Assembly (NCBI GenBank): GCA_045636465.1
Contig: JAZTXP010000013.1
Span: 24,686-88,685, forward strand
Direction: 5' to 3'
Source: Eubacteriales bacterium
GTDB lineage: Bacteria; Bacillota; Clostridia; Oscillospirales; CAG-272
DNA: 64,000 nucleotides
Part shown: positions 35,793 through 49,899 of the stretch, piece after piece
Position numbering within the stretch: the first letter of the stretch is position 1
Layout of the letters: every line of letters starts with the position of its first letter
Notes under the pieces: generated by a model
Told to the model about the DNA's origin: nothing
Database searches by the model: none
Seen by the model: the letters and a program-made list of their open reading frames with translations, nothing else
Position numbers and translations under genes: made by a program

Positions 35793-36082
35793 TTGATAAA
35801 CCTCGCTATAGTACGAATAAGCTCTTCGATTTTTTCATCGTCTCCATTGCGCACTCCACCTGCAACGCAAGAACGGATATGAGATTCCAGGATCTCCTTT
35901 GAAAAAGAACCTAAGGCGGAGATAGTCGCGGATGTCTGCGTCAGAATATCAACGCAGTATTTATCGTCTGTGAGCATCTCTTTAATGCCTCTTACCTGCC
36001 CTTCTATCCTTGAAAGACGGTTTATCAGGGCGCGCTTCTCCTTCTCGCTGCGTATTTTTGTTTTTTCACCGCAACATTCCAT
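35789..36082 (-). CDS. csoR: CsoR-family copper-sensing transcriptional repressor
   Basis: 97 aa. RLSRIEGQVRGI, C-x...H-x3-C ligand pattern (YCVDILTQ ... ESHIRSC). Overlaps the copA start by 4 nt. Confidence 0.9.
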   Translation of the reverse strand: MECCGEKTKIRSEKEKRALINRLSRIEGQVRGIKEMLTDDKYCVDILTQTSATISALGSFSKEILESHIRSCVAGGVRNGDDEKIEELIRTIARFIK

Positions 36083-36420: not shown

Positions 36421-37953
36421 TTACTTAGTCGCAGTTATAAAGAACACTACGAGATAATAGCCTTCATCGGTATAGTTATAAACAGTGAACTCCACGCTTT
36501 CGTGATCAATAGCATCCTCGATGGACGAATGAACGTTCTTGCCGGTCACTGCGCTTGCGGGATCGAACTTCAAGGTATATGCAGGAGAATCAAGCTCCAA
36601 AGCGTCGTCCAGCATTGTGTCAACCAGAGTATCAAGCTCAGAATAAGAATCGATCTTAAAGTCCAGATCAGATCCAAGATCACACTTGTCATAATAGCTA
36701 TCTGCCATGCTGGCATTATTGTTGTTGTTTTTGAGAGTAGAATCCCAAATGCCGCTGTAGTCATAGACTTTATCCGTTGAATAGCCCTGCTTGTAGGTGT
36801 TAACCGCGCAAAGGAAATAAGCGTAATCAACAACCTCTGCTTTAGCCTTGCCACCATCAAAGCTTACACCTGCATCTCCTGCGGTAGTATCAACCATATA
36901 CCAGGTGCCGTTAATCTTAACGTAGTTCCAAGCGTGACCTGCACCGCCGGTAAGGGATGCTCCAAAATCACGGAGGCACTCGATTCCCTCTATTCTGCAA
37001 AGAAGCACGAAGGCCTTGCTCTTGCCGTCGCAAACCGCGCGATTATATTCGAACACGCCCTCAAGGAAGTAGCAAACATTGTTTGCGGTATCGCCGCTAT
37101 CAATAGCCGCGTAAGCATCGTAGTCGTAATCAACGGAATCAACTATGTATTCGAAGATTGCCAGAGTCTTTTCGTAATCGGTCATATCATCGTTGATGAT
37201 GCGGCGAAGAATGTCCTTTGCCTCCTCATAGAAGGCCTCAGCCTTAGTGTTTTTCGCAGGGAAGGTGGGGAGATAATTATGCTCCAGCGCCCACCAAAGC
37301 GACTCGGAATTATAAACAGCCATCTCGCCCGCGTTGTTCTTGTTGATAGCAAAGTCATCAAAATCGGCAGATCTTGTAGCCTCGCCATCCTTTGCATCGC
37401 GGATAAGCATATTGCCATTCTTGTAGTTTTGATAAGTATGCTCCGCAGTTTTCGGAAGATTGTAGGATGCGGTTTCGTTATCGTACTTCAACTCAAAGGT
37501 TGCCACACTGCCTTCGTAAGTATATTCATATCCCGTGATATGCTCAAGCTCTCTGTTAGTATTTGCAAGATAGCCATTCTTGAAGAAATCGCCGAGTCCC
37601 GCATATCCGTATATCATGGAACCGAAATCAATAGTTATCTCCGAGAGAAGATTGGCAATCGCATAATCAAATACACGGTCAATTTCGTAATAACTTTCAA
37701 CTTCCCAAATATATCCGTCGGGGGAAGCAGGCACTACATTGTAGCCACTATGTAAACCAGAGTAGGGATTTTGGGGGGTGTTTACTCGATTTTCATCAGG
37801 CAGAACCTCTACAGCTCTTTCCTCCGTCTCCCCTTCGCCGCCATCCTGCAGGAAGGCATCAAGTATCTCAAAGATGATGTCGCAGGAGGTCATGGAAAAT
37901 ACCATAACCACGGTGAGAAGCAGCACAAGTAATCTCTTAAGTGTGTTTTTCAT
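36421..37953 (-). CDS. Transglutaminase-like (papain-fold) domain lipoprotein
   Basis: 510 aa. Lipobox FSMTSC. Transglutaminase core motifs CDGKSKAFVLLCR, GHAWNYV and MVDTT. Confidence 0.8.
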   Translation of the reverse strand: MKNTLKRLLVLLLTVVMVFSMTSCDIIFEILDAFLQDGGEGETEERAVEVLPDENRVNTPQNPYSGLHSGYNVVPASPDGYIWEVESYYEIDRVFDYAIANLLSEITIDFGSMIYGYAGLGDFFKNGYLANTNRELEHITGYEYTYEGSVATFELKYDNETASYNLPKTAEHTYQNYKNGNMLIRDAKDGEATRSADFDDFAINKNNAGEMAVYNSESLWWALEHNYLPTFPAKNTKAEAFYEEAKDILRRIINDDMTDYEKTLAIFEYIVDSVDYDYDAYAAIDSGDTANNVCYFLEGVFEYNRAVCDGKSKAFVLLCRIEGIECLRDFGASLTGGAGHAWNYVKINGTWYMVDTTAGDAGVSFDGGKAKAEVVDYAYFLCAVNTYKQGYSTDKVYDYSGIWDSTLKNNNNNASMADSYYDKCDLGSDLDFKIDSYSELDTLVDTMLDDALELDSPAYTLKFDPASAVTGKNVHSSIEDAIDHESVEFTVYNYTDEGYYLVVFFITATK

Positions 37954-38061: not shown

Positions 38062-38089
38062 CAAAAAGCGCCCTCGTCTGAGGGCGCTA
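38062..38089 (-). terminator. Rho-independent terminator ending the Opp-like operon
   Basis: On the minus strand: AGCGCCCTC-AGAC-GAGGGCGCT followed by TTTTTG. Confidence 0.8.
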
Positions 38090-38107: not shown

Positions 38108-38512
38108 TTATACGAAGGAAGCGAGAATTAATGAAACTATCACCATTCCGACACCTAACCAAAGGTATTCGAAGGGGACTCCCTTTCTCTTTTCCTTCTT
38201 CTGGAGCTTGTATTCATAGAATCCGCCCTCGTCCTTATCCTTTTGCATAGGCGTAAATAGATAAAGAACAGATTTGAATCCGTATCCGATTATATCCAGC
38301 ACTCCGGTGGTGGATATCCACATAATTAGACCGACGCCTGTAAACATTATTCCCGCAACACAAAATCCGTCGCTGAGCGCGTGGATAGGAGGGATGTAAT
38401 CCACACCGTATGGGGGATTGTTTATTCTAAGGAAATACACAAGCACCACAGTGACCACGGATACTGCAACAGCAACACCCCAGTTGATCAGCTTTTTATA
38501 CTTATTTTCCAT
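38108..38512 (-). CDS. Small membrane protein (DUF3899-like)
   Basis: 134 aa with 3-4 TM segments. Last gene of the Opp-like operon. Family assignment is from overall resemblance only. Confidence 0.6.
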   Translation of the reverse strand: MENKYKKLINWGVAVAVSVVTVVLVYFLRINNPPYGVDYIPPIHALSDGFCVAGIMFTGVGLIMWISTTGVLDIIGYGFKSVLYLFTPMQKDKDEGGFYEYKLQKKEKRKGVPFEYLWLGVGMVIVSLILASFV

Positions 38513-38515
38513 TTA

Positions 38516-39607
38516 TTACTTCAATTCCTTCTGATACTTCTTAAATTCCTCAGAGTTGCAATAAACGAAATGTCCGGGCTTTATCTCACGCATAGTAGGA
38601 CCTTCCTTGGAATAGTCGTGGGATGCGAGAGGGTTGTAAACGATTCTCTGTCTCTTCTTCTCGTACATAGGATCGGGAAGAGGAATAGCAGAAAGAAGCG
38701 ATCTTGTATAGGGGTGAAGAGGATTTCTGAAGAGCTCTTCTGCGGGAGCAAGCTCGACCATCTTGCCAAAGTACATAACGCCGATTCTGTCAGAGAAGTA
38801 CTTAACAACCGAAAGGTCGTGAGCGATGAAGAGGATGGTAAGTCCAAGCTCGCGACGAAGGTCGTTAAGAAGGTTGATAACCTGAGCCTGAATAGAAACG
38901 TCGAGAGCGGAAACGGGCTCGTCTGCGATAATGAGGTCGGGCTCCATAATTACAGCACGGGCAACGCCGATTCTCTGCTTCTGTCCGCCTGAGAACTCGT
39001 GAGGATAACGGGATGCGTGCTCCTTAACGAGACCTACAAGCTCGAGGATCTTAAATACCTTGTTATCGATCTCCTCCTTATCCTTCATACCGTTGATGAT
39101 AAGACCCTCTGCGATAATATCGCGTACGGTCATACGGGGGTCAAGAGAAGCGATGGGATCCTGGAAGATCATCTGAATCTTTGTTCTGAGTTTCTTATCA
39201 ATATTCTTCTTATCCTGGATTAAGGACTTGATCTCTCTCTTACAAGTTTCAATATTTACGTATTCCTGCTTGATCTCATCTCTGATTGCTTTGCGATCGG
39301 AGAATCTTGCATGCTTGATCTCCTTCTTGAGCTTCTTGATCTGAACCTCGGACTTCTTGATAGCATATCTGTGGTAGCCTGTTCCAACAGCCATTTTCTT
39401 GCCTTTGAAGGTAACGCTACCGCCGGTGATATCGTAAAGACCGATAATGGATCGACCGGTTGTGGTTTTGCCGCAGCCGGACTCACCAACAAGACCGAAT
39501 ACTTCGCCCTTTCTGATCTCAAAGTTTACGTCGTCTACAGCCTTGGTAGGACCGAAGTACTGACAGAGATGCTCAACTTTGAGCAAAACTTCATTATTAT
39601 TTGCCAT
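38516..39607 (-). CDS. Opp/Dpp-type ABC transporter ATP-binding protein (OppF-like) with an insertion of about 55 aa before the Q-loop
   Basis: 363 aa. Walker [36 protein letters not shown] and the oligopeptide C-terminal extension. A Lys-rich helical insert ([18 protein letters not shown]...KNIDKKLR) lies between the first beta-strands and the Q-loop. Confidence 0.9.
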
Positions 39608-41796
39608 TACTGTGCACCTCCGCGTTTTCTCATTCTTTCAATTCTCTCCGCAACTACCTTGGGCATACCGATCTTAGGCGCCTGGGGATGAAGGAGCCAT
39701 GTTGCTGCCTCATGTGTAGGAGAAATTCTAAACATAGGAGGCTGCATCTCGAAGTCGATCTCGAGCGCATACTTGTTACGGTCTGCGAAAGCATCGCCCA
39801 CGGGAGGATAGATCATGTTAGGAGGTGTGCCGGGAATAGCCTCAAGCTTTTCCTTGGTATCAAGGTCGGGCATGGAGGAGAGGAGCGCCCATGTATAAGG
39901 ATGGGCGGGAGCGTAGAAGATATCTTCTGAAGTACCGCACTCAACGATCTTACCCGCGTACATAACTGCAATTCTGTCTGCCATGTTAGCAACAACGCCA
40001 AGGTCGTGGGTAATGAAGATGATGGAGAGCTGACGCTCCTTCTTGATTTTGTTAATAAGCTCAAGGATCTGAGCCTGAATAGTAACGTCAAGAGCTGTTG
40101 TAGGCTCGTCGCAAATAAGGATGTCGGGGTTAGCCGCGAGAGCGATCGCAATAACAATTCTCTGTCTCATACCTCCGGAGAACTCGAAGGGATACTGTTT
40201 GAATCTCTTTGCAGGCTCGGCGATACCAACCTCATCCATAAGCTTGATAGCCTTACGCTTAGCCATGCTCTTAGTTACGGTATAAACTGTATCGGAAGCG
40301 TTGCGCTTGAAGAAATCAACGAGCTCAACGGTTTCCTTTGCGAAGTTACGGCTTGCGCTTTCGGCAAGTCTCTTCTGATAATGCTTGATAAGTCTTTCCA
40401 CTACGCCAACAACGTCGCGCTTAACGTCCTCAAGGTCGATGAGGGCGGCAGGAATAACCTTCCACTCGGGAGTCTTTCCTCTTCTTACGAGACTGTCATA
40501 CTTAGCCTGCTGCTTATCGTGAGCAGCCTTTGCAACCTTATTCTTCTTGATAGCCTCGAAGTAGCTGTCAATTGTATGAATCAAGCTGGTCTTAAAGGTA
40601 TATGCGATACTGTCCTTATGGATCTCAAGATGGTCAATGGATTCTTCAACCTCCTTGATAAGGGCATTTGCGCAATCATAAACTGTCTTCTTGTGATAGC
40701 GTCCGCTCTTGCCGAAGGTTCTGAGAGATCTTCTCGCGCAGTCAAGCGCCTCTCTCTTTTCCTTATCATAAATAATAGCGGAGTATCTGAGAGCAACCTC
40801 GATGAAGCCGAGGAAGCGAAGCATGAAGTGCTTATCGAGATACTGGAGAAGGAACTCGTTAAGCTCCTTAACAGGCATTTCGGGAAGGGGCTGGTTTGCG
40901 AATGTGAGATAGTAGCCCATTCTGAAGAAGTCGGGAGAATCCTTAGCAACCGCAAACTCAAGAACAGACTTAAGCTCTGCAAGTTTCTTAGCTGTTGATG
41001 CAAACTTTCCGCCTCTTTCCTCGCGGTTATAAGCCTTAGGAAGTGTATTAACAAGGCTCATAAGCTTAACCGAGTGTTCTTTTACAACGTACTCGTGTGT
41101 TGCCTTGCCTGCAAGAGTACAGATCTCCTTGATCTCAGCCTTGCATCCCTTAAAAGCGTTCTTCTCAATGTGGAAGAGCGCGTCCTCAATAAGAGGAATT
41201 GCTTCCTGAGCAGACTCGTAAGACTCGTTATACTTCTGCTCAAGCTCGATGTGCTTGAACTCAAATGTGTCGAAGTCCTTGCAAAGCTGTTCGATCTGCT
41301 GCTCTGTAAGCTTTTCTATTCTCTGACCTGTAAGATTGGTATAGCCGCCCTTAGTAATAGCCGCTACCATCGTCCTCTTAAGGAGAGCGAGAGTATTATT
41401 GAAAGCATCACGGCTAGCCTTCTGTCTTGCCTTGCCCTTAAGGAGCATAGCCTCGGTAAGCTGCCTACCGATCTTCATAATGGGGTTAAGAGAGGACATG
41501 GGATCCTGGAAGATCATAGCGATCTTGTCACCGCGGATCTTGTGGAAGTCCTCCTCGCCGATCTTGAGAAGGTCCTGACCGTCGTAGATGATCTCGCCGG
41601 ACTCAACAATTGCGTTGCCGGAAAGAATACCAAGAATGGACTTGGATGTTACGGATTTACCGGAACCGGACTCACCAACGATAGCGAGGGTTTCACCCTT
41701 GTAAAGGTCAAAGTTGATATTTCTAACGGCCTGAACCTTGCCGTTTACCGTTTTGAACGATATTCTTAAATTGTTAACTTCTAATTTCTTTTCCAT
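39607..41796 (-). CDS. Opp/Dpp-type ABC transporter ATP-binding protein (OppD-like) split by a helical insertion of roughly 380 aa
   Basis: 729 aa. Walker A GESGSGKS (aa 41-48), Q-loop IAMIFQDP (aa ~92-99), signature FSGGMRQR only at aa ~539, then ILICDEPTTALD and the oligopeptide C-terminal domain. Confidence 0.9.
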   Translation of the reverse strand: MEKKLEVNNLRISFKTVNGKVQAVRNINFDLYKGETLAIVGESGSGKSVTSKSILGILSGNAIVESGEIIYDGQDLLKIGEEDFHKIRGDKIAMIFQDPMSSLNPIMKIGRQLTEAMLLKGKARQKASRDAFNNTLALLKRTMVAAITKGGYTNLTGQRIEKLTEQQIEQLCKDFDTFEFKHIELEQKYNESYESAQEAIPLIEDALFHIEKNAFKGCKAEIKEICTLAGKATHEYVVKEHSVKLMSLVNTLPKAYNREERGGKFASTAKKLAELKSVLEFAVAKDSPDFFRMGYYLTFANQPLPEMPVKELNEFLLQYLDKHFMLRFLGFIEVALRYSAIIYDKEKREALDCARRSLRTFGKSGRYHKKTVYDCANALIKEVEESIDHLEIHKDSIAYTFKTSLIHTIDSYFEAIKKNKVAKAAHDKQQAKYDSLVRRGKTPEWKVIPAALIDLEDVKRDVVGVVERLIKHYQKRLAESASRNFAKETVELVDFFKRNASDTVYTVTKSMAKRKAIKLMDEVGIAEPAKRFKQYPFEFSGGMRQRIVIAIALAANPDILICDEPTTALDVTIQAQILELINKIKKERQLSIIFITHDLGVVANMADRIAVMYAGKIVECGTSEDIFYAPAHPYTWALLSSMPDLDTKEKLEAIPGTPPNMIYPPVGDAFADRNKYALEIDFEMQPPMFRISPTHEAATWLLHPQAPKIGMPKVVAERIERMRKRGGAQ

Positions 41797-41800
41797 ATTA

Positions 41801-43396
41801 TCAATCCTCGATTCCCTTCAGTGATGGGTTGAAAGCGTCGCGGAGACCGTTACCGAAGAGGTTGAACGAAATCTCAAGCAGGGAAATGAACAACGCGGGG
41901 AACAAAATAATGTGAGGGAAGGTGCTGAGAACGCCGTTACCGTTAGAAAGAAGTGTACCAACGGATGTCTGAGTGGAGCTCTCAAGGTTAACGATACCCA
42001 GGTATGTCAAGCTGGACTCGGAGAAGATAACTCCGGGGATAGAAAGAACTGAGCCTGTGATAAGTGTACCCATTGCGTTGGGGAAAATGTGCTTGAAGAT
42101 AAGTCTTCTGTCGCTGGCACCGAGAGTTCTTGCGGAAAGAACGTATTCCTGATGCTTGAATCTGTAGAACTGCATACGTGTTCTTGCAGCCATACCAAGC
42201 CATCCTGTAAGCACGAAGGCGAATACCATCGACCATACAGGACCAACCTTCGATGCAAGGTGGAGCTGGAAGAGCGACATAACTACCATTGAGGGCATAC
42301 CGCCGAGAATATCGGAGATTCTTTCCATTACCATATCAACAGCGCCGCCGTAGAAGCCCTCGATCGCGCCGTACATAGCGCCGATGAAGAGGTTAACTGC
42401 GGAAATGCAGATAGCGAGAACAAGAGAGAATCTTGCACCGGCTGCAAGCCTTGTAAGGATATCCTGACCCTTCTGGTTAGTACCGAAGAGGAAGGAAGCC
42501 TCGTGACCGTATCTATAGGTGAAGTAGTTATCGAGAAGAACTCTTACCTTGTAGGAGGTAATAACCTTATCGTTTACTCTTGTTGCAGAAACGAGAGCAT
42601 AAAGATAATCGCCGTTATCGCCATCAATGCGAAGACTGTTGTAATTATAATACTCGGAGGAGTAAAGCAAGCCCTGGAATCTTGCGCTGTCCTTATCTGC
42701 GTAGCATTCTATGAAATTGCCTTTATTATCTAATCTGGGGTAACCGTTACCTGTGGTTGAATACCAAACGTTTGCGTCACCCTTCTTAGCATTGGCGATT
42801 AGATCCTTGCCGTTTTCCTTAAGAGTGGTATCAACTACAGGGAAAATAACCTGTATGCCGGTTTCATTCTGCCATCTCTGAATGTCCTCGAATTGTTCAA
42901 GAGAAAGGTCGATGAACTGCATACCGTTTGCAACGTAGGAGTCAACTCTTACGTCATAGTAGGTTCTGTTATCTTCCTTGTAAGGATCGCCGTAAACCTC
43001 AACCATAACCTCGGAGCCGGTCTCTTTCTCGAGAGCTCTGAAAATGTTATACTGGTTTTCGTTAACGGTTTTGTCCTTCGCACCGTCCCAGAAGCCGTAC
43101 TGAGAAAGAAGCTCGGACTTGGGAAGGAGGTTTCTATACTGAAGATAGGTTGTGTCTGTAAGTGAAAGTGAATATGTGGTCTCGCAGAAAATAGGAACGA
43201 AAATCGCGAAAAGCACAAGAAGGAAAATGATGATAGCCGCTACTACGGAGGACTTGTTCTTGCAGAATCTTCTGAATACGTCCTTTGCGTAGCTCATAGG
43301 CTTGGTATCAAACTTCTTATCACCGGTTCTGCGCCCGGGATCTGCAAAGCGGAGCTTTTCTAATGGTATATTTTTAATATTTATATTCTTTTCCAT
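41801..43396 (-). CDS. Opp/Dpp-type ABC transporter permease (OppC-like) with a large extracytoplasmic insertion after TM1
   Basis: 531 aa. TM1 (AAIIIFLLVLFAIFVPIF), then about 230 soluble residues, then the conserved BPD permease core (EAA-like SARTLGASDRRLIFKHIFPN). Confidence 0.85.
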   Translation of the reverse strand: MEKNINIKNIPLEKLRFADPGRRTGDKKFDTKPMSYAKDVFRRFCKNKSSVVAAIIIFLLVLFAIFVPIFCETTYSLSLTDTTYLQYRNLLPKSELLSQYGFWDGAKDKTVNENQYNIFRALEKETGSEVMVEVYGDPYKEDNRTYYDVRVDSYVANGMQFIDLSLEQFEDIQRWQNETGIQVIFPVVDTTLKENGKDLIANAKKGDANVWYSTTGNGYPRLDNKGNFIECYADKDSARFQGLLYSSEYYNYNSLRIDGDNGDYLYALVSATRVNDKVITSYKVRVLLDNYFTYRYGHEASFLFGTNQKGQDILTRLAAGARFSLVLAICISAVNLFIGAMYGAIEGFYGGAVDMVMERISDILGGMPSMVVMSLFQLHLASKVGPVWSMVFAFVLTGWLGMAARTRMQFYRFKHQEYVLSARTLGASDRRLIFKHIFPNAMGTLITGSVLSIPGVIFSESSLTYLGIVNLESSTQTSVGTLLSNGNGVLSTFPHIILFPALFISLLEISFNLFGNGLRDAFNPSLKGIED

Positions 43397-44448
43397 TATC
43401 TTTCTCCCATTCTGATTCTAGGATCTACAAAGCCATAGCTAAGGTCAACTACGATACCGGAGGCAAGGCCTACAAGGGTATAGAAGGAGTTGAGAAGCAG
43501 GTAAACGTTGTAGTCAAGTGCATTGATAGACTCAAGGTAGAGACCGCCAACACCGGGAATACCAAAGATCTGCTCAACGATAAGAGAACCGCCGATGATA
43601 CCGATGAATTCACCAAGAATCATGGGGAAGATAGGCACCATGGAGTTTCTGAGGGCGTGGCGAACTGTAGCCTGTCCTCGTGTCAAGCCCTTAGTTCTTG
43701 CAAGGAGCATATATTCCTGAGTAAGAACCTCGCAAAGCTCGGCTCTGGTGTATCTCGCAAGACCTGCGATAGTACCGAGAGCAAGGGAAAGCACGGGGGG
43801 AACGATGGATATAAACATACTCATAGAGAAGTAGTCCGTACCGGGGTTCATAGTAAGGGGGAAGCCCCATCCTGTCCATTCAACCAGCTTATGGCAGAGA
43901 ATGTACTGGATAAGGAAGCAGTAAACGTAACCGGGAACCGAAATGAATACCATAACGCCGGTGGAAATAAGGTGGTCCTGCCACTTGTTCTTTTTAAGAG
44001 CTGCATAAATACCGAGAGCAAGACCTGCAGGAACCGCAACGATCATTGTCACTACGTTTACAAGCATTGTGGAGGGAAGCTTAGTAAGGAAAACATCCCA
44101 TATCTCACGGTTAGGATAGAGCTGCTCGGAAAGACCCCAGTTACCGCCCTTGAATACTTTGTTGTTAAGGTCGTAACCTAACAAAACACGTGTCTGTTCA
44201 CCGTTAGCATTTGTACTGAAATCTGTTGCGAGAAGTGTCTTTGTAAGGAATATTCCGTACTGCTCAATAAGCGGCTTATTATAACCCAGTGCCTCACGGC
44301 GCATCATAATAATATTATATGAGTCGGAGCCGGGCTGTGCCTGCGGCGGCTTATCTGGCAGGAGCTTAACGAGGAAGAAGCACATTGTGATGATTACGAA
44401 GAATACGAAGATCATCAGCAAAAGTCGTTTTACTACGTATTTAAACAT
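43396..44448 (-). CDS. Opp/Dpp-type ABC transporter permease (OppB-like)
   Basis: 350 aa. MFKYVVKRLLLMIFVFF N-terminus and EAA loop (LARTKGLTRGQATVRHALRNS). Confidence 0.9.
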   Translation of the reverse strand: MFKYVVKRLLLMIFVFFVIITMCFFLVKLLPDKPPQAQPGSDSYNIIMMRREALGYNKPLIEQYGIFLTKTLLATDFSTNANGEQTRVLLGYDLNNKVFKGGNWGLSEQLYPNREIWDVFLTKLPSTMLVNVVTMIVAVPAGLALGIYAALKKNKWQDHLISTGVMVFISVPGYVYCFLIQYILCHKLVEWTGWGFPLTMNPGTDYFSMSMFISIVPPVLSLALGTIAGLARYTRAELCEVLTQEYMLLARTKGLTRGQATVRHALRNSMVPIFPMILGEFIGIIGGSLIVEQIFGIPGVGGLYLESINALDYNVYLLLNSFYTLVGLASGIVVDLSYGFVDPRIRMGER

Positions 44449-44638
44449 ATTTACCTCCTGTAAATTTTGTTGAAAATGTAAATTTTAATTAGCTTTTTTC
44501 GCTAAAAAACGCAATTAGGATTACCATTGGAAATTGCACTTTAATATTATCTTCATCCCCATAAAGGTAATACCAAAATGCAATTTTAACCGCTGTTTTT
44601 TTGACAGCTGTAGCGATAACCTGCAAATCGCAAGAAAA

Positions 44639-44694
44639 GGGGTTACACCCCAAAAAATGCACATTCCCCCCCGAGGGCCTAAACCCTCGGGGGG
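44639..44694 (-). promoter_or_regulatory. Two GC-rich stem-loops between the binding-protein gene and the permease genes
   Basis: CCCCCCCGAGGG (44666-44677) / CCCTCGGGGGG (44684-44694), and GGGG-TTACA-CCCC (44639-44651). On the minus strand each is followed by a short U-run. This is the position of a partial terminator or stabiliser downstream of the SBP gene. Confidence 0.6.
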
Positions 44695-44753
44695 CAGTAT
44701 GCCAAGTATCACTTACAAGAAGTCATACCTATAAATTCTATCTGTTTTACAGA

Positions 44754-47267
44754 TTACTGGTAGTTAAGAACGCCACCCTTTTCGGTGATGTACTCTTCCC
44801 ACTCAGCGTCGGTGTAGTTGTATGTCATGTACTGAATACCACCACGGCCAACACCGTAAACGTATTCCTGAGTATAGTACTCTACCTGGTAACCAAGAAG
44901 AGAAGCGGAGGAATCACAGTGTGTAGGAATCATATCGTAGTTTCTAAGAACTGCGCCCTCGATAGCAGCGAGAAGGAGAACTCTCTCTTCCTGCTTGGAA
45001 GGATCCTTCTTAACTTCTGCAGTACCGCAAGCATATTCTACCATTTGACCTGTAGCAACGTTACGGATCTCGATTGTCTCGCCTTCGCAAGCGTATGTCC
45101 AGTTAAGAACGGAAGCTTCGTAAGTAACGCCATCGAATGTGAACTGCATCATTTCCTTAGAAGTATCCCAAGAGGGGTCATACTGGTAATCAGGATATGT
45201 GTAAGCACCGATAAGACCGTAGGGGTTAAGAGCGGAACCGGTCCAACCTACTCCGAAGAGCATATCAACAGTGTTAGCGCGAAGAGCATCGGAGAAGCCG
45301 TTACCAAGAGTGCTGTCGTTGGTGAATGTAAGCTTACCTTCAAGCTTTGTGCCCTTAACTGCCTCAGTATAGTTGTTTACGAGGAAGTCATAACCGTTGG
45401 TATAGAACTTAGATGTGTTGTTGGGAGTACCGATGCAGATCTCGATTGTATCTGTACCGTTGTAAACGCCTGCTGCAACAGCTGCGTCATAAGCCTGGTT
45501 GAAGAGCTCCTTAGCACCCTCAAGGTTGTAACCTGTGATGGAAGCGATAGCCTCATCCTTTGTGGGATAGAGCTTGCCTTCACCGATATCGTCCTGAGAA
45601 ACGCCCCAGAACTCAAGGATTGTATCCTTAGCTGCTTCCTCTGTACGGTACATAACACCGTTTTCAGGGTCAGAGCAGATCATGTTGCTGAAGAGTGCAA
45701 GACCGATGGAGCCCATAGGATCAAGTGTGTTAATGAACTTCTGACGGTCAAGAGAGAAGGAGATAGCCATTCTGAACTCCTTCATGCCAAGGATGGACTT
45801 ATCCTTGCCGGGATTCTCTTTTTCCCACTCTACGAAAGCTGCCTCGCTGGGGTTCATAGCGATGAACCAAGTGGAGTCGCCGTCTGTGTAGTAAATTCTC
45901 TCAGAAGATGTGTAATCGGAAACGTGGTCAACGTCGAGACCGTATGCATCAAGCTTACCCTGAAGGAATGCTGTGTAAGCGGTTTCGCTGTCGTACTTGT
46001 CGATAACAACCTTAGTTGTCTGATACTGACCCTCACGAGCGGGATCGGAGTGACCATACCAGTTGTTGTTCTTTGTGAACACGAGCTGCTTATCAAGCTG
46101 GAAGGATTCAAGCTTGTAAGGACCGAAGCCCATGTATGTTTCGGTAGATGTACCGTAAGTGTTAGAATAGAGACCGTTCTCGTCGATAGACTCGCACTTA
46201 TCATAGATGTCAGTCTTTACGAGACCGAAGTTACCTGTAAGGCTGTAGTTGAGGTAGAAGCCATCAAGGGGAGACTCAAGGATAATAACAAGCTCTGTGT
46301 CAGAGAGAGCCTTGATACCAACTTCGTCGAAGGAAACGTCGGGATATGTGATAGTGCTTATGCACCATACAAGGGGAGTGCCTGCAAGAGCCATACCGAA
46401 CTGAGCTGCAGAGTTCCAAGCTGCTGCAAGAGCGGGATCTGCCTTAATCTCAGCAAGGGTCTTACCTTCCATAGCTACTGCTGCCTCGGGAGTGAAAGCA
46501 ACATTGCCGTCTTTATCTGCCATGTAGTTGCCGTAGTTACCGATAAGCCAAGCTGCTGTGTTAGCTACATTGTAGGATGCAGGGAAACCTGCCCAAGTTC
46601 TAACGTAGCACTCTACTTCGCCTGCGCCAAGGTTGAACACGAGAACGTCGTCAAGCTCTTCGGAGTAAGCGCCGTAACCTTCCTGTGCAGGAACGGTAGC
46701 AGTTCTGCCGCTATAGAAACGATCCTTAGCGTTTACAAGAACAAGGTCGCCGGAGTAGAGCTGGTCAGCTCTGTAGTTGATAGCAACGGGATCAAGAAGT
46801 CTGTCTGCGGATGCAACGAAATCGTGCGCTGTGATGGGTGTGCCGTCTTCCCATTTGAGGTCGTTACGAAGCTCGATGAGCCAAGCTCTGGAAGTCTCGT
46901 CTTCGCCGATGCCCCATTCCTCGCCAACGTAGTTAGATGTAACGTCAACGGGCATTGCAGCTGCCATTTCGGGAACAACTACGAAACCGTCTTTAGTTTC
47001 GTTGTAATCGAAGGTGTAGAAACCAACAGTTGTGTAATCAAGAACTGTGGAATCGTTAGCAGTCTGATAAGTGTGGGGGTTCCAAGAGGTACCGAATTCG
47101 GATGTGTAAGTATTGTATGTGTAATGAAGTTCTGCTCTGCACTTATCGCAAACAAGATCTCCATTATCGTCCTTGTGCTTACACTTGAACCAATCGCAAG
47201 ATGTCATAGAGAGCATCATTGCAACTACAAGAACCAAAGTAAGAACTTTAGTGAAGTTTTTGAACAT
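44754..47267 (-). CDS. Family-5 (peptide/nickel/oligosaccharide type) ABC substrate-binding lipoprotein, unusually large
   Basis: 837 aa. Lipobox LSMTSC. The family-5 SBP-like body carries several insertions. A Cys-rich segment (CDWFKCKHKDDNGDLVCDKCRAELHYTY) follows the lipid-anchor Cys. Confidence 0.85.
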   Translation of the reverse strand: MFKNFTKVLTLVLVVAMMLSMTSCDWFKCKHKDDNGDLVCDKCRAELHYTYNTYTSEFGTSWNPHTYQTANDSTVLDYTTVGFYTFDYNETKDGFVVVPEMAAAMPVDVTSNYVGEEWGIGEDETSRAWLIELRNDLKWEDGTPITAHDFVASADRLLDPVAINYRADQLYSGDLVLVNAKDRFYSGRTATVPAQEGYGAYSEELDDVLVFNLGAGEVECYVRTWAGFPASYNVANTAAWLIGNYGNYMADKDGNVAFTPEAAVAMEGKTLAEIKADPALAAAWNSAAQFGMALAGTPLVWCISTITYPDVSFDEVGIKALSDTELVIILESPLDGFYLNYSLTGNFGLVKTDIYDKCESIDENGLYSNTYGTSTETYMGFGPYKLESFQLDKQLVFTKNNNWYGHSDPAREGQYQTTKVVIDKYDSETAYTAFLQGKLDAYGLDVDHVSDYTSSERIYYTDGDSTWFIAMNPSEAAFVEWEKENPGKDKSILGMKEFRMAISFSLDRQKFINTLDPMGSIGLALFSNMICSDPENGVMYRTEEAAKDTILEFWGVSQDDIGEGKLYPTKDEAIASITGYNLEGAKELFNQAYDAAVAAGVYNGTDTIEICIGTPNNTSKFYTNGYDFLVNNYTEAVKGTKLEGKLTFTNDSTLGNGFSDALRANTVDMLFGVGWTGSALNPYGLIGAYTYPDYQYDPSWDTSKEMMQFTFDGVTYEASVLNWTYACEGETIEIRNVATGQMVEYACGTAEVKKDPSKQEERVLLLAAIEGAVLRNYDMIPTHCDSSASLLGYQVEYYTQEYVYGVGRGGIQYMTYNYTDAEWEEYITEKGGVLNYQ

Positions 47268-47983
47268 AAAAATGTCCTCCTTTAAAATTTTGATATCATA
47301 ATCTCAAATATTTAACCCGCGGTCAACGGCAATTTTCTACGGTGTTAATCTGTTTGAAAAAATAATAACTTGTTTTTATTCACTTTCCGCGGAGTGAATG
47401 AAAAATGCATATTATGCATATTTTTTCGTCCAGCAAAAAATAAATATGCCTTATTGTATCACATCTCCAAAGAAATATCAACAGACTATGAGAAACTTTC
47501 ATACCCTTATCTCAAAGTATAATAAGCCAAATAAAAACCTTTGTTAAATATGCACTAAACTCTAGAAAAATGACGGGTTTTATTGTGCATTTTATATATT
47601 TTATTATATTTAGGGGAAAAGTAAGGCTTTTTTTGACATTTTCGAGTATGCAAAAAAGCTTCTGCCGATACCACGCGGCATACAGAAAAATAAAGCCAAA
47701 ATGTGCCCAAAACAAAGATACGTTGTTTTTTGTCATAGTATGCAAAAAGTATGCTATGTGTCCCGGGCATCCCGTATTTTTTCATATAGAGAGAAAATTT
47801 ACAAATCATTTAAGAAATATTTACCTTGTAGGCAGTCTTTTCTCTTTTCGAGGTTAATTTTTCAACCGTTTGAGCTTTTGTTATTCCTTTTGAAATGATA
47901 AACAGAACTCCTCTGCAGCTTTTAAGCCTTATTTTTCCCACCTCCGACGTGCATATACATTTTCATTCCGGGTTCCGCCAAGT

Positions 47984-48026
47984 AAAAAGAAAAAGAGCCG
48001 TTTTTTCTGAAATTACGACTCTTTTC
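47984..48026 (-). terminator. Rho-independent terminator after pepF
   Basis: On the minus strand: AAAAGAGTCG ... CGGCTCTTTT hairpin (one G-U pair) followed by TCTTTTT. Confidence 0.6.
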
Positions 48027-48099
48027 TTCCTTATATATTTTAAAGCGGAGAAAAATGTTGGACATTTTTCCGTTATTTAGCGCTTAAAACATGGGGGGA

Positions 48100-49899
48100 T
48101 TATTTATTGTTATAAATTTCTCTGAACTGACGGACGCAGGATGCGAAGTCCTCGATCGCGCCGTTAATAACCTCGGGAGAGGTCATATCGATGCCTGCAA
48201 CCTTAAGGCTATCAAGAGGAGACTTGGAATCGCCGCACTTGAGGAAATCGATATACTGATTTACGTAGGACGGGCCCTCGGTTTCGATTCTCTTTACGAT
48301 TGCGGATGCCGCGGAAATGCAGGTAGCGTACTTATATACGTAGAAGCTGGTGTAGAAATGAGGAATTCTCATCCATTCGAAGGCGATCTGGCGGTCGATT
48401 GCCACCTTGGGGCCGAAATACTTGCGAACAAGCTTCTTATAATGGGTATTGATAACGTCGGCAGTGAGAGGAGTTCCCTTCTCTGTCATCGCGTGCATAT
48501 CGCGCTCAAACTCCGCAAACATAGTCTGACGGTAGAGAGTTCCCTTATAGGTCTCGATAAGCTGATTGAGGATATAGAGCTTCTCCTCCGCGCTTTCGCA
48601 CTCTGCAAGCTTTCTGTGAGCCATAAGAAGCTCGTTAACGGTAGATGCAACCTCTGCAACGAAGATGGTGTAACCTGCATTATGAGGCTCGTTGTAGGTG
48701 TTTGAGAAATAGGTATGCATAGAGTGACCTGCCTCGTGGGCAAGAGTGGACACGTCGTTGAAGGTTTCGGTGTAGTTCATAAGGATGTAGGGCTCTGTGC
48801 CGGGGCAGCCTGAGCTGAATGCGCCGCCTCTTTTACCCTTTGCGGGATAAACGTCTACCCATCCGCGCTCGGTGAGACCGGCTTTAAGGGTGGAGTGATA
48901 CTCTTCGCCGAATACCTCTGCGGTCTTGATAACCTCTTCAACCGCCTCCTCGTAGGTGTACTTCTTGTCAAGCTCGCCGATAAGGGGCGCGTAGAGATCA
49001 TACATATGAAGCTTGTCAACACCAAGAACCTCGCGCTTGAGATCATAGTAATCATAAAGGGCGGGGAGCCCCTTGTGAACCGACTTAATAAGATTATTAT
49101 AAATGGTAGGATCTACCTCATCACGGAAGGTGGAGGCGGTGATGGAATTTTTAAAGTTGCGAATCTTCGCCATAGCGCATCTTTCCTTAACGTGAGATGC
49201 AAAGAGAGTGGCAAAGGTGTTACCAAACTGCTCGTAGGTCTTGTAAAGAGTGCGGAAGGCAGACTGGCGAACGCGGCGGTCGGGACTCATAAGCATAGTA
49301 ACATAGCTCGCATCCTCAATCTGCACCATATTGCCTTTTTCATCCTTAATCTTGCCAAATTGTAAATCAGAGTTTGCAAAAATGCTACGAACTTGGCTGT
49401 TCGAACCAAGAGCATCACTCACCTTTGTCATAAGCTTTTCACATTCATCGGAGAGAGTGTGCTTCTTTTCAGCCTGGCTTTTCTCTATCATTCTGCGGAA
49501 GGATTCAAGGCGAGGCTCTACTGCGAACCAGGACTCAACAACCTTGGAATCAAGCTTGATAAGATAGGGGGATACGAACCAGGTAGTCTGCCCCATCATT
49601 ACCGAGAGGTTTCTTACTCTCGCATTCATCGCCTGATATGCGTTGTTGGAGCTGTCGGTAGCAAAGTGAAGAGATGCATACTGCCAGAGTCTTTCAAGCT
49701 TCTCAATAAGAGTAGCCATATCGCGAAGAGCCTCATAGAGAGCGGTAGCGGAGCCGGTCATAGTTTTTTCGTGCTTTGCATAGTCACGTGCCATCTCCTC
49801 TGCCAGCTTCAAATCAGCATTAAAATCATCCTCCGTTTTGTATATTACGGTGAGATCCCACTTATATTTTGCGGGAACGTCTTTTCTGTCAAGTGCCAT
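48100..49899 (-). CDS. pepF: Oligoendopeptidase F (M3B metallopeptidase)
   Basis: 599 aa. HEAGHSMH zinc motif and typical PepF N-terminus (KYKWDLTVIY). Confidence 0.95.
   Translation of the reverse strand: MALDRKDVPAKYKWDLTVIYKTEDDFNADLKLAEEMARDYAKHEKTMTGSATALYEALRDMATLIEKLERLWQYASLHFATDSSNNAYQAMNARVRNLSVMMGQTTWFVSPYLIKLDSKVVESWFAVEPRLESFRRMIEKSQAEKKHTLSDECEKLMTKVSDALGSNSQVRSIFANSDLQFGKIKDEKGNMVQIEDASYVTMLMSPDRRVRQSAFRTLYKTYEQFGNTFATLFASHVKERCAMAKIRNFKNSITASTFRDEVDPTIYNNLIKSVHKGLPALYDYYDLKREVLGVDKLHMYDLYAPLIGELDKKYTYEEAVEEVIKTAEVFGEEYHSTLKAGLTERGWVDVYPAKGKRGGAFSSGCPGTEPYILMNYTETFNDVSTLAHEAGHSMHTYFSNTYNEPHNAGYTIFVAEVASTVNELLMAHRKLAECESAEEKLYILNQLIETYKGTLYRQTMFAEFERDMHAMTEKGTPLTADVINTHYKKLVRKYFGPKVAIDRQIAFEWMRIPHFYTSFYVYKYATCISAASAIVKRIETEGPSYVNQYIDFLKCGDSKSPLDSLKVAGIDMTSPEVINGAIEDFASCVRQFREIYNNK

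What the first reader, a model, noticed from the sequence alone, without database searches (positions are those of the whole stretch)
38108..47267. Opp-like ABC importer in which every component is enlarged relative to canonical Opp/Dpp systems
Operon order on the minus strand is SBP (837 aa), OppB-like (350 aa), OppC-like (531 aa), OppD-like (729 aa), OppF-like (363 aa), then a small DUF3899-like membrane protein. pepF lies upstream.

From general knowledge, canonical components are roughly 540 aa (OppA), about 300 aa (OppB/C) and about 310-340 aa (OppD/F). The enlargements here are:
- The SBP carries about 300 extra residues.
- OppC has an extracytoplasmic domain of about 230 aa after TM1.
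- OppD has an insertion of roughly 380 aa.
- OppF has an insertion of about 55 aa.

Comparable oversized Opp ATPases are known to me mainly from Mollicutes. Finding the whole set expanded in a spore-forming Clostridium-type genome is unusual. It suggests co-evolved extra domains, for example an extracellular scaffold formed by the SBP and the OppC insert together with a cytoplasmic regulatory domain in the ATPases. The substrate need not be peptides, since family-5 SBPs also bind oligosaccharides and metals.
Basis: partly seen in the sequence, partly recalled or inferred. Interest (0 to 1): 0.6.

Follow-up and report, generated by a model that had tools for sequence, protein, structure and literature searches.

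The report
Enlarged Opp-type importer of gut Clostridia
This is a real six-gene Opp-type nutrient importer whose binding protein, one membrane subunit and one ATPase each carry a large extra domain of unknown function. It is not a one-off: the same enlarged operon occurs in at least 240 species of gut Clostridia and has never been described or studied.

Summary
The minus strand carries SBP (837 aa), OppB (350), OppC (531), OppD (729), OppF (363) and a DUF3899 membrane protein (134) as one operon, with an RBS in front and a strong terminator after DUF3899.

Extra parts relative to solved Opp/Dpp structures:
- OppD has 389 aa inserted after the Q-loop helix.
- OppC has 226 extracytoplasmic aa between TM1 and TM2.
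- The SBP has about 300 extra aa, spread over a tether and several insertions.
- OppF has about 60 extra aa before the Q-loop.

The system is not rare: the OppD insert occurs in at least 240 species genomes, all Clostridia, and the whole architecture is conserved in the 80 loci examined. The OppD insert is not the Mycoplasma one, because it sits at a different site.

The OppD insert and the OppC domain are folded (pLDDT 75–93 and 86), length-constrained and under purifying selection. They have no Pfam, NCBIfam or PDB relative. The SBP and OppF insertions are variable.

Best reading: an undescribed clade of PepT-family importers, probably for peptides, with lineage-specific accessory domains. 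It is a new variant of a known kind, of moderate interest.

The parts
44754..47267 (-). Substrate-binding lipoprotein (837 aa), family-5 / cluster-C SBP; lipobox Cys24
   Evidence: ORF. PF00496 scores 118.8 bits against a cut-off of 32.4. There are weak OppA-type matches in the PDB. The lipobox Cys is invariant in 45/45 homologues. Only one hydrophobic segment, residues 1-19, is present.
46329..46742 (-). Main SBP insertion (aa 176-313), hypervariable
   Evidence: It lies between the two stretches that align to OppA chain 5KZT. Length is 113-217 aa in homologues, median identity 14%, and 2% of columns are at least 80% conserved. No Pfam match.
43396..44448 (-). OppB-type permease (350 aa, 6 TM) with a lineage-specific +29 aa in the TM1-TM2 loop
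   Evidence: BPD_transp_1 and BPD_transp_1_N. Best NCBIfam model is Opp3B at 210 bits, below the 480 cut-off. The loop is 82 aa here against 52-55 aa in 66 homologues. Hydropathy.
41801..43396 (-). OppC-type permease (531 aa)
   Evidence: OppC_N and BPD_transp_1. Aligns to E. coli OppC chain 8Z21_B at residues 27-76 and 299-525. Its start overlaps the oppB stop.
42503..43180 (-). OppC extracytoplasmic domain (aa 73-298) between TM1 (51-69) and the next TM (313-331)
   Evidence: AlphaFold2 gives pLDDT 86.2 and pTM 0.81, with an alpha/beta fold. No PDB fold match: best Foldseek E is 0.54 and TM is below 0.2. No Pfam, NCBIfam or PDB sequence match. Found only inside OppC proteins. Length is 200-261 aa and omega is 0.12-0.19. 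The N-terminus is positively charged, with 14 K+R in residues 1-49, so the domain faces outside.
39607..41796 (-). OppD-type ATPase (729 aa); Walker A GESGSGKS, signature FSGGMRQR, Walker B ILICDEP, H-loop ITHDL all intact
   Evidence: ABC_tran and oligo_HPY. Aligns to Mtb OppD chain 8J5Q_D. Motifs were read from the translation.
40279..41445 (-). OppD insert (aa 118-506): all-helical cytoplasmic domain in the helical subdomain, after the helix that follows the Q-loop
   Evidence: Boundaries. It is the confident part of the AlphaFold2 model (pLDDT 75-93) and contains helices of 40-47 residues. Length is 371-411 aa, 27% of columns are at least 80% conserved, and omega is 0.11-0.22. A search with the insert alone gave 150 representatives with E<=1e-3. 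No Pfam, NCBIfam or PDB match. No hydrophobic segment.
38516..39607 (-). OppF-type ATPase (363 aa); motifs intact ([29 protein letters not shown])
   Evidence: ABC_tran and oligo_HPY. Best NCBIfam hits are below their cut-offs. Its start overlaps the oppD stop.
39215..39397 (-). OppF insert (aa ~71-131), before the Q-loop; variable
   Evidence: The flanks map to Mycoplasma OppF profile positions 4-70 and 392-429. Length is 34-110 aa in homologues and median identity is 20%. The insert alone matches no family.
38108..38512 (-). DUF3899 small membrane protein (134 aa, 3 hydrophobic segments), last gene of the operon
   Evidence: PF13038 scores 46.2 bits against a cut-off of 23.4. Present after oppF in most loci. 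The gap from oppF is -3 to +23 nt in 28 of 29 cases. Hydropathy.
38067..38088 (-). Intrinsic terminator ending the operon
   Evidence: A 9-bp stem with 7 G-C pairs followed by TTTTTGTT, 20 nt after the DUF3899 stop.
44639..44651 (-). Weak hairpin plus T-run in the SBP-oppB gap (possible attenuator giving excess SBP)
   Evidence: Consensus scan only. Its function is inferred.
47270..47633 (-). Conserved upstream region with promoter-like sites and RBS
   Evidence: 75% identical over 367 nt to the region upstream of the SBP gene in L002. The last ~85 nt are also conserved in L003 and L007. Promoter-like sites lie at 47481-47453 and 47326-47298. The RBS AAAGGAGGA is visible. No Rfam match.

Best explanation
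This is a member of a large, undescribed clade of PepT-family (Opp/Dpp-type, TC 3.A.1.5) type I ABC importers found in gut and rumen Clostridia. Three core subunits have each acquired a lineage-specific accessory domain.

Proposed working model:
1. The lipid-anchored 837-aa binding protein captures a ligand outside the membrane. The ligand is most likely an oligopeptide.
2. The binding protein docks on the OppB/OppC heterodimer. The 226-aa OppC extracytoplasmic domain is inserted in the TM1-TM2 loop next to the docking surface, where it enlarges or stabilises the platform for the oversized binding protein.
3. The OppD/OppF heterodimer has both ATP sites intact and drives translocation.
4. The 389-aa all-helical OppD insert projects into the cytoplasm from the helical subdomain. 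That subdomain is the part of the ATPase that senses the coupling helix. The insert most likely modulates ATPase coupling or binds a cytoplasmic partner.
5. The 3-TM DUF3899 protein, whose gene is translationally coupled to oppF, is a probable accessory membrane subunit.

Shown here: family membership, operon structure, insert positions, foldedness, conservation and distribution. Inferred: the peptide substrate and every specific role assigned to the accessory domains.
For: Family and operon:
- The Pfam architecture is complete and NCBIfam ranks Opp/Dpp models first.
- The genes align to solved OppBCDF, DppBCDF and Mtb OppABCD chains.
- Gene overlaps, an RBS, promoter-like sites and a strong terminator after DUF3899 define one transcription unit.

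Distribution:
- More than 120 clusters of OppD are 695-751 aa long, and more than 120 clusters of OppC are 503-582 aa long.
- 240 species genomes encode the OppD insert, all of them Clostridia.
- The SBP-B-C-D-F(-DUF3899) order with enlarged sizes is conserved in all 80 loci.

The domains are real:
- OppD insert: pLDDT 75-93, length 371-411 aa, 27% conserved columns, omega ~0.11-0.22.
- OppC domain: pLDDT 86 and pTM 0.81, omega 0.12-0.19, and an outside-facing topology.

Peptide substrate:
- The best SBP matches are peptide-binding OppA proteins.
- The best permease models are S. aureus Opp3B and Opp3C.
- pepF lies directly upstream here and in the closest relative.

DUF3899:
- Gaps from oppF are -3 to +23 nt.
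- A DUF3899 gene also sits in the E. faecalis V583 oppA-oppBCDF locus (bioRxiv 10.64898/2026.09.22.753285).
Against: - All NCBIfam equivalog scores are below their cut-offs, so the system is not an orthologue of any named Opp, Dpp or Nik system.
- SBP similarity to OppA is weak (E about 1e-8 to 1e-10 over short stretches), and family-5 SBPs also bind sugars, metals and opines.
- pepF adjacency is confined to the closest relatives. No functionally informative neighbour recurs across the 80 loci.
- No structural or sequence relative exists for either accessory domain, so their roles rest on position alone.
- The ATPase core of the OppD model was poorly predicted, and the orientation of the insert relative to the membrane could not be inspected.
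- DUF3899 is missing from about 17 loci, mostly Oscillospiraceae with long OppF.
Confidence: 0.6

Rival explanations
1. The transporter has the same architecture but imports a non-peptide substrate, such as oligosaccharides, glycopeptides or muropeptides, or metal-opine complexes. The oversized, hypervariable SBP would then reflect diversification of substrate.
For: The SBP resembles OppA only weakly, and it also gives weak hits to NikA and CntA models. The main SBP insertion is hypervariable. The system meets no equivalog cut-off.
Against: The top SBP matches are peptide binders. The permeases are closest to peptide Opp3 and Opp4 models. No glycoside hydrolase, opine-synthesis or metal-regulation gene recurs next to the operon. 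pepF is adjacent in the closest genomes.
Confidence: 0.2
2. The system shares ancestry with the enlarged Mollicute Opp system, so the inserts are inherited and homologous.
For: The Mycoplasma MMSYN1_0167 and MMSYN1_0168 models give the highest NCBIfam scores for OppD and OppF. The OppF insert occupies the same pre-Q-loop site as the Mycoplasma OppF insert. The neighbouring lipoprotein gives a weak hit to the Mycoplasma MAG6410 family.
Against: The OppD insert is at a different site: after profile position 336, while the Mycoplasma insert lies between positions 72 and 298. The isolated inserts do not hit the Mycoplasma models at E<=10. All scores are far below the equivalog cut-offs: 458 against 740, 401 against 800, 121 against 350 and 184 against 370. 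The permeases score higher against S. aureus Opp3B and Opp3C. In this system OppC is enlarged, and the Mycoplasma OppC model is only 307 positions long.
Confidence: 0.07
3. The extra segments are functionless filler: disordered linkers, decaying insertions, selfish elements, or gene-fusion or assembly artefacts.
For: The SBP N-terminal extension is a low-complexity tether in most homologues. The SBP and OppF insertions are poorly conserved.
Against: The OppD insert and the OppC domain are predicted with confidence as folded domains. Their lengths are constrained across 66-67 genomes, and omega is 0.11-0.22. The same reading frames recur in independent assemblies from many studies.
Confidence: 0.03

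Closest known systems
Canonical OppABCDF / DppABCDF importers (E. coli 8Z21 and 8Z1V; M. tuberculosis OppABCD 8J5Q)
   Same: The subunit set and gene order are the same. So are the Pfam domains, including OppC_N and the oligo_HPY C-terminal domain, and the ATPase motifs are intact. Core identity is 48-53% over the aligned ATPase regions.
   Different: This system has +389 aa in OppD, +~226 aa in OppC, +~300 aa in the SBP and +~60 aa in OppF, plus an extra DUF3899 gene. The C-terminal domains have no Cys cluster: OppD has 0-1 Cys across the clade. The SBP is a lipoprotein.
Staphylococcus aureus Opp3 / Opp4 (NCBIfam Opp3B, Opp3C, Opp4A-C)
   Same: These are the best-scoring permease models: Opp3C 266.8 bits and Opp3B 210 bits. 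They are peptide importers of Firmicutes with lipoprotein SBPs.
   Different: The scores are below the equivalog cut-offs of 450 and 480. The Opp3C model is 328 positions long and lacks the 226-aa domain.
Mollicute Opp system (JCVI-syn / Mycoplasma mycoides MMSYN1_0165-0168)
   Same: Both are Opp systems whose ATPases carry large insertions. The OppF insertion site, before the Q-loop, is shared.
   Different: The OppD insertion site differs: before the Q-loop in Mycoplasma and after the Q-loop helix here. There is no sequence similarity between the inserts. The OppF insert is about 60 aa here and about 320 aa in Mycoplasma. OppC is the enlarged permease here.
Enterococcus faecalis V583 TldR-associated oppA-oppBCDF locus
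   Same: It is an Opp operon of a Firmicute with an associated ~100-aa DUF3899 gene (bioRxiv 10.64898/2026.09.22.753285).
   Different: There the DUF3899 gene is antisense to the operon, whereas here it is co-directional and translationally coupled to oppF. No tldR gene or guide RNA was looked for or seen here. Whether the enterococcal subunits carry the inserts was not checked.
Rad50/SMC-type ABC ATPases (analogy only)
   Same: A long helical element is inserted between the Walker A/Q-loop half and the signature/Walker B half of an ABC ATPase. A sub-threshold SMC_N match spans the insert.
   Different: The SMC_N score is 26.2 against a cut-off of 40. This protein is a transporter ATPase with an oligo_HPY domain. 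No hinge or zinc-hook motif was found, and no fold match was obtained.

Membership tests
PepT / Opp-Dpp family ABC importer (TC 3.A.1.5) | Family-5 (cluster C) extracytoplasmic solute-binding protein | tested here: met
   PF00496 scores 118.8 bits against a cut-off of 32.4. The lipobox Cys is conserved in 45/45 homologues.
PepT / Opp-Dpp family ABC importer (TC 3.A.1.5) | Two different BPD_transp_1 permeases, the second with an OppC_N N-terminal TM domain | tested here: met
   PF00528 scores 118.4 and 78.4 bits, PF19300 34.6 bits and PF12911 43.9 bits, all above their cut-offs. The permeases align to chains 8Z21_B and 8J5Q_C.
PepT / Opp-Dpp family ABC importer (TC 3.A.1.5) | Two ATPases with ABC_tran plus the oligo_HPY C-terminal domain and intact catalytic motifs | tested here: met
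   PF00005 scores 101.3 and 108.3 bits, and PF08352 53.0 and 37.6 bits. Walker A, Walker B, signature and H-loop motifs were read directly from the translations.
PepT / Opp-Dpp family ABC importer (TC 3.A.1.5) | Peptide (or other defined ligand) binding and ATP-dependent uptake | not testable with these tools
   Needs ligand-binding and transport assays.
Named orthologue groups (NCBIfam equivalogs OppA/B/C/D/F, Opp3, Opp4, Dpp, Nik, Gsi, Cnt) | Whole-protein score at or above the curated cut-off | tested here: not met
   Every hit is below its cut-off. Examples: OppA 40 against 947, Opp3B 210 against 480, Opp3C 266.8 against 450, OppD 348.7 against 575, OppF 324.2 against 540.
Mollicute-type enlarged Opp (MMSYN1_0165-0168) | Score at or above the equivalog cut-offs | tested here: not met
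   The scores are 120.7 against 350, 184.4 against 370, 458.3 against 740 and 401.2 against 800.
Mollicute-type enlarged Opp (MMSYN1_0165-0168) | OppD insertion at the same site (before the Q-loop, profile positions 72-298) | tested here: not met
   The window's OppD residues 5-75, 82-120 and 507-718 map to profile positions 2-72, 298-336 and 339-551. The 389-aa insert therefore falls between profile positions 336 and 339.
Mollicute-type enlarged Opp (MMSYN1_0165-0168) | OppF insertion homologous to the Mycoplasma OppF insertion | tested here: inconclusive
   The site is the same: residues 8-70 map to profile 4-70 and residues 132-169 to profile 392-429. However, the insert is about 60 aa against about 320 aa, and on its own it matches no family.
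Fe-S-containing OppD/DppD type (as in M. tuberculosis OppD; from general knowledge) | Four-Cys cluster in the C-terminal domain | tested here: not met
   OppD has 0-1 Cys and OppF 1-2 Cys in the C-terminal region across 67 and 55 homologues.
DUF3899 (PF13038) | Pfam score above the gathering threshold | tested here: met
   46.2 bits against a cut-off of 23.4. The protein has three hydrophobic segments.
SMC/Rad50-type ABC ATPase | SMC_N profile above threshold; coiled-coil with hinge or hook | tested here: not met
   PF02463 scores 26.2 bits against a cut-off of 40. Foldseek returns only transporter ATPase domains.

The most novel reading that the evidence does not exclude
The accessory parts give the transporter a second function beyond uptake. 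The OppD helical insert, the OppF insert and DUF3899 would form a cytoplasmic/membrane module. That module would couple peptide import to a partner such as a peptidase or a regulator, in the manner of a 'trigger transporter'. The OppC extracytoplasmic domain would be a new fold acting as a co-receptor for an oversized, rapidly diversifying binding protein. If so, this would be a distinct sub-type of ABC importer that is abundant in the human and animal gut microbiota.
Probability: 0.12. Interest if true: 0.75.

Novelty: new variant of a known kind. Interest (0 to 1): 0.45.

Why it matters
Opp-type importers are central to nitrogen nutrition and peptide signalling in Firmicutes. This clade is present in hundreds of gut and rumen Clostridia (Lachnospiraceae, Oscillospiraceae and relatives), yet it is annotated only as generic 'ABC transporter' subunits.

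It contains two confidently folded domains with no known relatives. One is a 389-aa domain inserted into the part of the ATPase that communicates with the membrane subunits. The other is a 226-aa extracellular domain in a permease. Large insertions at that ATPase position are unusual for ABC importers, so a structure of this complex could reveal a new way of regulating or assembling a type I importer.

The practical value is a defined family with a cultured member, ready for structural and biochemical work. It does not resolve a long-standing question.

Tried and rejected
- Foldseek/PDB with the OppC domain gave nothing significant.
- Profile searches of both inserts against PDB sequences gave only noise. 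Pfam and NCBIfam on the isolated inserts gave nothing.
- The first genome scan, with a very divergent insert alignment, failed for lack of a conserved stretch. It was repeated with a closer set.
- The look-up of encoding contigs on the 100%-identical OppC (P0121) found no record, so the exact source genome was not identified.
- Neighbour analysis for substrate clues: the recurrent 'clusters' were mostly antisense ORF artefacts, and the real ones (a MATE pump, an RNA methyltransferase, RNase R) were uninformative.
- A CodY-box search found no site near the promoter, and the window total of 7 is no more than chance.
- Rfam found nothing in the window or in the long upstream region.
- Five literature searches on enlarged Opp subunits found no description of these inserts.
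- The Cys/His motif after the SBP lipobox was considered as a conserved zinc knuckle. It was rejected as a family feature because it is confined to the window's sub-clade.
- The ECD profile search listed mainly fragments rather than the full-length proteins already seen. It was used only to show that the domain occurs in no other protein context.

Full report
**1. Observation**

The six minus-strand ORFs exist exactly as described:
- SBP: 44754-47267, 837 aa
- OppB: 43396-44448, 350 aa
- OppC: 41801-43396, 531 aa
- OppD: 39607-41796, 729 aa
- OppF: 38516-39607, 363 aa
- DUF3899 protein: 38108-38512, 134 aa

pepF lies upstream at 48100-49899 (TIGR00181, 604.5 bits, above the cut-off). Pfam gives the full Opp/Dpp architecture: SBP_bac_5; BPD_transp_1 with BPD_transp_1_N; BPD_transp_1 with OppC_N; ABC_tran with oligo_HPY twice; and DUF3899.

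The genes abut or overlap: oppB/oppC and oppD/oppF each share one base, and oppC/oppD are 4 nt apart. An RBS (AAAGGAGGA) precedes the SBP start, and promoter-like sites lie at 47481-47453 and 47326-47298. A strong terminator (9-bp stem, 7 G-C pairs, T-run) follows DUF3899 at 38088-38067. A weaker hairpin with a T-run sits in the 305-nt SBP-oppB gap. This is one transcription unit of six genes. The transglutaminase-like lipoprotein downstream (36421-37953) has its own terminator and is a separate unit.

**2. Where the extra residues are**

- OppD: against Mtb OppD (8J5Q_D), residues 3-117 align to 3-116 and residues 507-698 to 123-316. So 389 aa (118-506) replace a ~6-residue loop. The insertion point is in the helical subdomain, directly after the helix that follows the Q-loop (FQDP at residues 96-99).
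- OppC: against E. coli OppC (8Z21_B), residues 27-76 align to 16-65 and residues 299-525 to 79-300. Hydropathy puts TM1 at 51-69 and the next TM at 313-331. The N-terminal 49 residues carry 14 K+R. Residues ~73-298 therefore face outside.
- SBP: against Listeria-type OppA (5KZT), residues 115-173 align to 64-123 and residues 314-540 to 134-336. The ~300 extra residues divide into about 50 aa after the lipobox, a ~130-aa insertion (176-313) and about 100 aa in the C-terminal third.
- OppF: the extra ~60 aa (71-131) lie before the Q-loop.
- OppB: it is only 44 aa longer than the 306-position E. coli OppB model, and 29 of those are unique to this lineage. The loop is 82 aa here and 52-55 aa in 66 homologues.

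**3. Distribution**

The system is common, not exceptional.
- An OppD search returned 7,995 hits. The best 120 clusters were all 695-751 aa long at 63% identity or better.
- The OppC search gave more than 120 clusters of 503-582 aa.
- A search of 1.84 billion representatives with the OppD insert alone found 150 proteins at E<=1e-3. In the full-length members (about 700-900 aa) the insert always starts near residue 118.
- A scan of one genome per GTDB species found 240 genomes that encode a relative of the insert. The 80 loci retrieved are all Clostridia, almost all gut, faecal or rumen MAGs. They include Eubacteriales, Lachnospiraceae, Oscillospiraceae, Acetatifactor, Ca. Faeciplasma, Faecousia, Firmicutes CAG:882 and the cultured Pseudoflavonifractor sp. 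MSJ-30. The closest are two 'Eubacteriales bacterium' MAGs (79% and 78% identity in the insert).
- ORF calling plus BLASTP on all 80 loci shows the same order and the same enlarged sizes wherever the contig allows: SBP 816-947 aa, OppC 503-562, OppD 713-751, OppF 352-464. DUF3899 is present in most loci. It is absent from about 17, mostly Oscillospiraceae with long OppF.
- Where DUF3899 is present, its gap from oppF is -3 to +23 nt in 28 of 29 measured cases.
- One locus (L026) carries two copies of the operon.

**4. Are the inserts real domains?**

For OppD and OppC, yes.
- The AlphaFold2 model of OppD (27-sequence alignment) has its confident region precisely in the insert, at pLDDT 75-93. 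The insert is all-helical, with helices of 40-47 residues. The first is continuous with the core helix that enters the insert, and the last leads back into the core. The ATPase core itself was poorly modelled.
- The OppC domain modelled alone gave pLDDT 86.2 and pTM 0.81, with an alpha/beta fold.
- Across 66-67 homologues, the OppD insert keeps a length of 371-411 aa, has 45% median identity to the window, and has 27% of columns at least 80% conserved. Its conserved motifs include PDFFRMGYY, SIDRLEIxKDSIAYTF and GKTPxWKVIP. The OppC domain keeps 200-261 aa with 41% median identity.
- dN/dS against the four nearest relatives is 0.11-0.22 for the OppD insert (core 0.05-0.09) and 0.12-0.19 for the OppC domain (TMD 0.07-0.11). 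dS is partly saturated, so these values are approximate.
- The OppF insert is variable: 34-110 aa and 20% median identity. The main SBP insertion is hypervariable: 113-217 aa, 14% identity and 2% conserved columns.
- In most homologues the SBP N-terminal extension is a low-complexity Thr/Ser/Glu/Pro-rich tether after an invariant lipobox Cys.

**5. No known relatives for the accessory domains**

- Pfam and NCBIfam give nothing for the isolated OppD insert, OppC domain or OppF insert.
- Profile searches against PDB sequences give only noise.
- Foldseek against the PDB finds nothing for the OppC domain (best E 0.54, TM below 0.2). For OppD it finds only transporter ATPase domains.
- The OppC domain occurs only within OppC permeases.

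**6. Relation to Mollicutes**

The Mycoplasma OppD and OppF models top the NCBIfam lists but fall far below their cut-offs. Scanning the flanks separately settles the insertion sites.
- OppD residues 5-75, 82-120 and 507-718 map to MMSYN1_0167 profile positions 2-72, 298-336 and 339-551. The Mycoplasma OppD insertion (~225 positions) is therefore before the Q-loop. The clostridial insertion is after the Q-loop helix, where the Mycoplasma profile is continuous. These are independent insertions.
- OppF residues 8-70, 132-169 and 181-359 map to MMSYN1_0168 positions 4-70, 392-429 and 470-649. The OppF insert therefore shares its site with the ~320-position Mycoplasma insert, but it is five times shorter and shows no detectable similarity.
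- The permeases score higher against S. aureus Opp3B and Opp3C than against the Mycoplasma models.

**7. Function**

- Membership of the PepT family is secure.
- Both ATPases have intact Walker A, signature, Walker B and H-loop motifs (read).
- The C-terminal oligo_HPY domains lack a Cys cluster throughout the clade.
- A peptide substrate is the most likely, but it is inferred. The best SBP and permease matches are peptide systems, and pepF is adjacent here and in the closest relative.
- No neighbour recurs across the clade. There is no CodY box and no Rfam element upstream.
- The ~365 nt upstream of the SBP gene are 75% conserved in L002.
- The roles of the accessory domains rest on position only. 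The OppC domain sits in the loop next to the SBP docking face. The OppD insert sits on the subdomain that contacts the coupling helix. This placement draws on established knowledge of type I importer architecture and was not tested here.
- A DUF3899 gene is also embedded in the E. faecalis V583 oppA-oppBCDF locus (bioRxiv 10.64898/2026.09.22.753285). This points to a wider DUF3899-Opp association.

**8. Verdict**

The system is a widespread, conserved and undescribed clade of Opp-type importers in gut Clostridia. It has two novel folded accessory domains (in OppD and OppC), an oversized and rapidly diversifying binding protein, and a probable small accessory membrane subunit. It is not rare in Clostridia, and its OppD insert is not shared with Mollicutes. 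I found no publication describing it. I class it as a new variant of a known kind, with interest 0.45.

Noticed in passing
window 36421-37953 (-): A 510-aa lipoprotein with a transglutaminase-core domain (PF01841, 46.6 bits) and a weak hit to the Mycoplasma MAG6410 lipoprotein family. It has the same SMTSC lipobox as the SBP. It lies just downstream of the operon with its own terminator (36354-36333). It is present only in the two closest relatives, L001 and L002.
   Followed up: partly
window 43396-44448 (-), OppB aa ~65-95: The OppB TM1-TM2 loop carries about 29 extra residues (around ATDFSTNANGEQTRVLLGYDLNNKVFKGG). All 66 homologues lack them, including the closest full-length one (L002, 322 aa).
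   Followed up: partly
window 47100-47198 (-), SBP aa 24-56: A Cys/His-rich motif (CKHKDDNGDLVCDKC) follows the lipobox directly. A related C..HVDxDGDFxCD..C motif occurs in L002, L005, L007, L008 and L019. Other homologues have a low-complexity tether instead. It could be a small metal-binding knuckle on the cell surface.
   Followed up: partly
window 47270-48099 (-): The pepF-SBP intergenic region is unusually long at 830 nt. The proximal ~365 nt are 75% identical in L002, and the last ~85 nt are also conserved in L003 and L007. There is no Rfam match. It may hold a long 5' UTR or an unrecognised regulatory element.
   Followed up: partly
L026 (uncultured Acetatifactor sp. MGBC108232), whole locus: Two complete copies of the enlarged operon lie tail to tail on opposite strands (OppD 728 and 717 aa; OppC 513 and 508 aa). 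This is a within-genome duplication of the system.
   Followed up: no
loci L034, L035, L045, L052, L055, L057-L059, L062, L064, L067-L071, L077, L079: The loci that lack a DUF3899 gene after oppF all have a long OppF (391-464 aa). However, long OppF also occurs together with DUF3899, so any compensation between the two is at best partial.
   Followed up: partly
window 33273-36082 (-): A copper-type P1B ATPase (839 aa, with N- and C-terminal CxxC metal-binding domains) is preceded by a 97-aa CsoR-like repressor ORF. This is an ordinary copper-efflux pair downstream of the region.
   Followed up: no
E. faecalis V583 oppA-oppBCDF-tldR locus (bioRxiv 10.64898/2026.09.22.753285): A ~100-aa DUF3899 gene interrupts that Opp operon on the antisense strand. 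Together with the present clade, this suggests a general and unexplained association between DUF3899 and Opp operons in Firmicutes.
   Followed up: partly
OppD model m44580025b26e: AlphaFold2 modelled the novel insert with higher confidence than the universally conserved ATPase core, whose pLDDT was below 50 over residues 9-90 and 628-712. This is probably an effect of the shallow 27-sequence alignment. The relative orientation of insert and core in that model should not be trusted.
   Followed up: no
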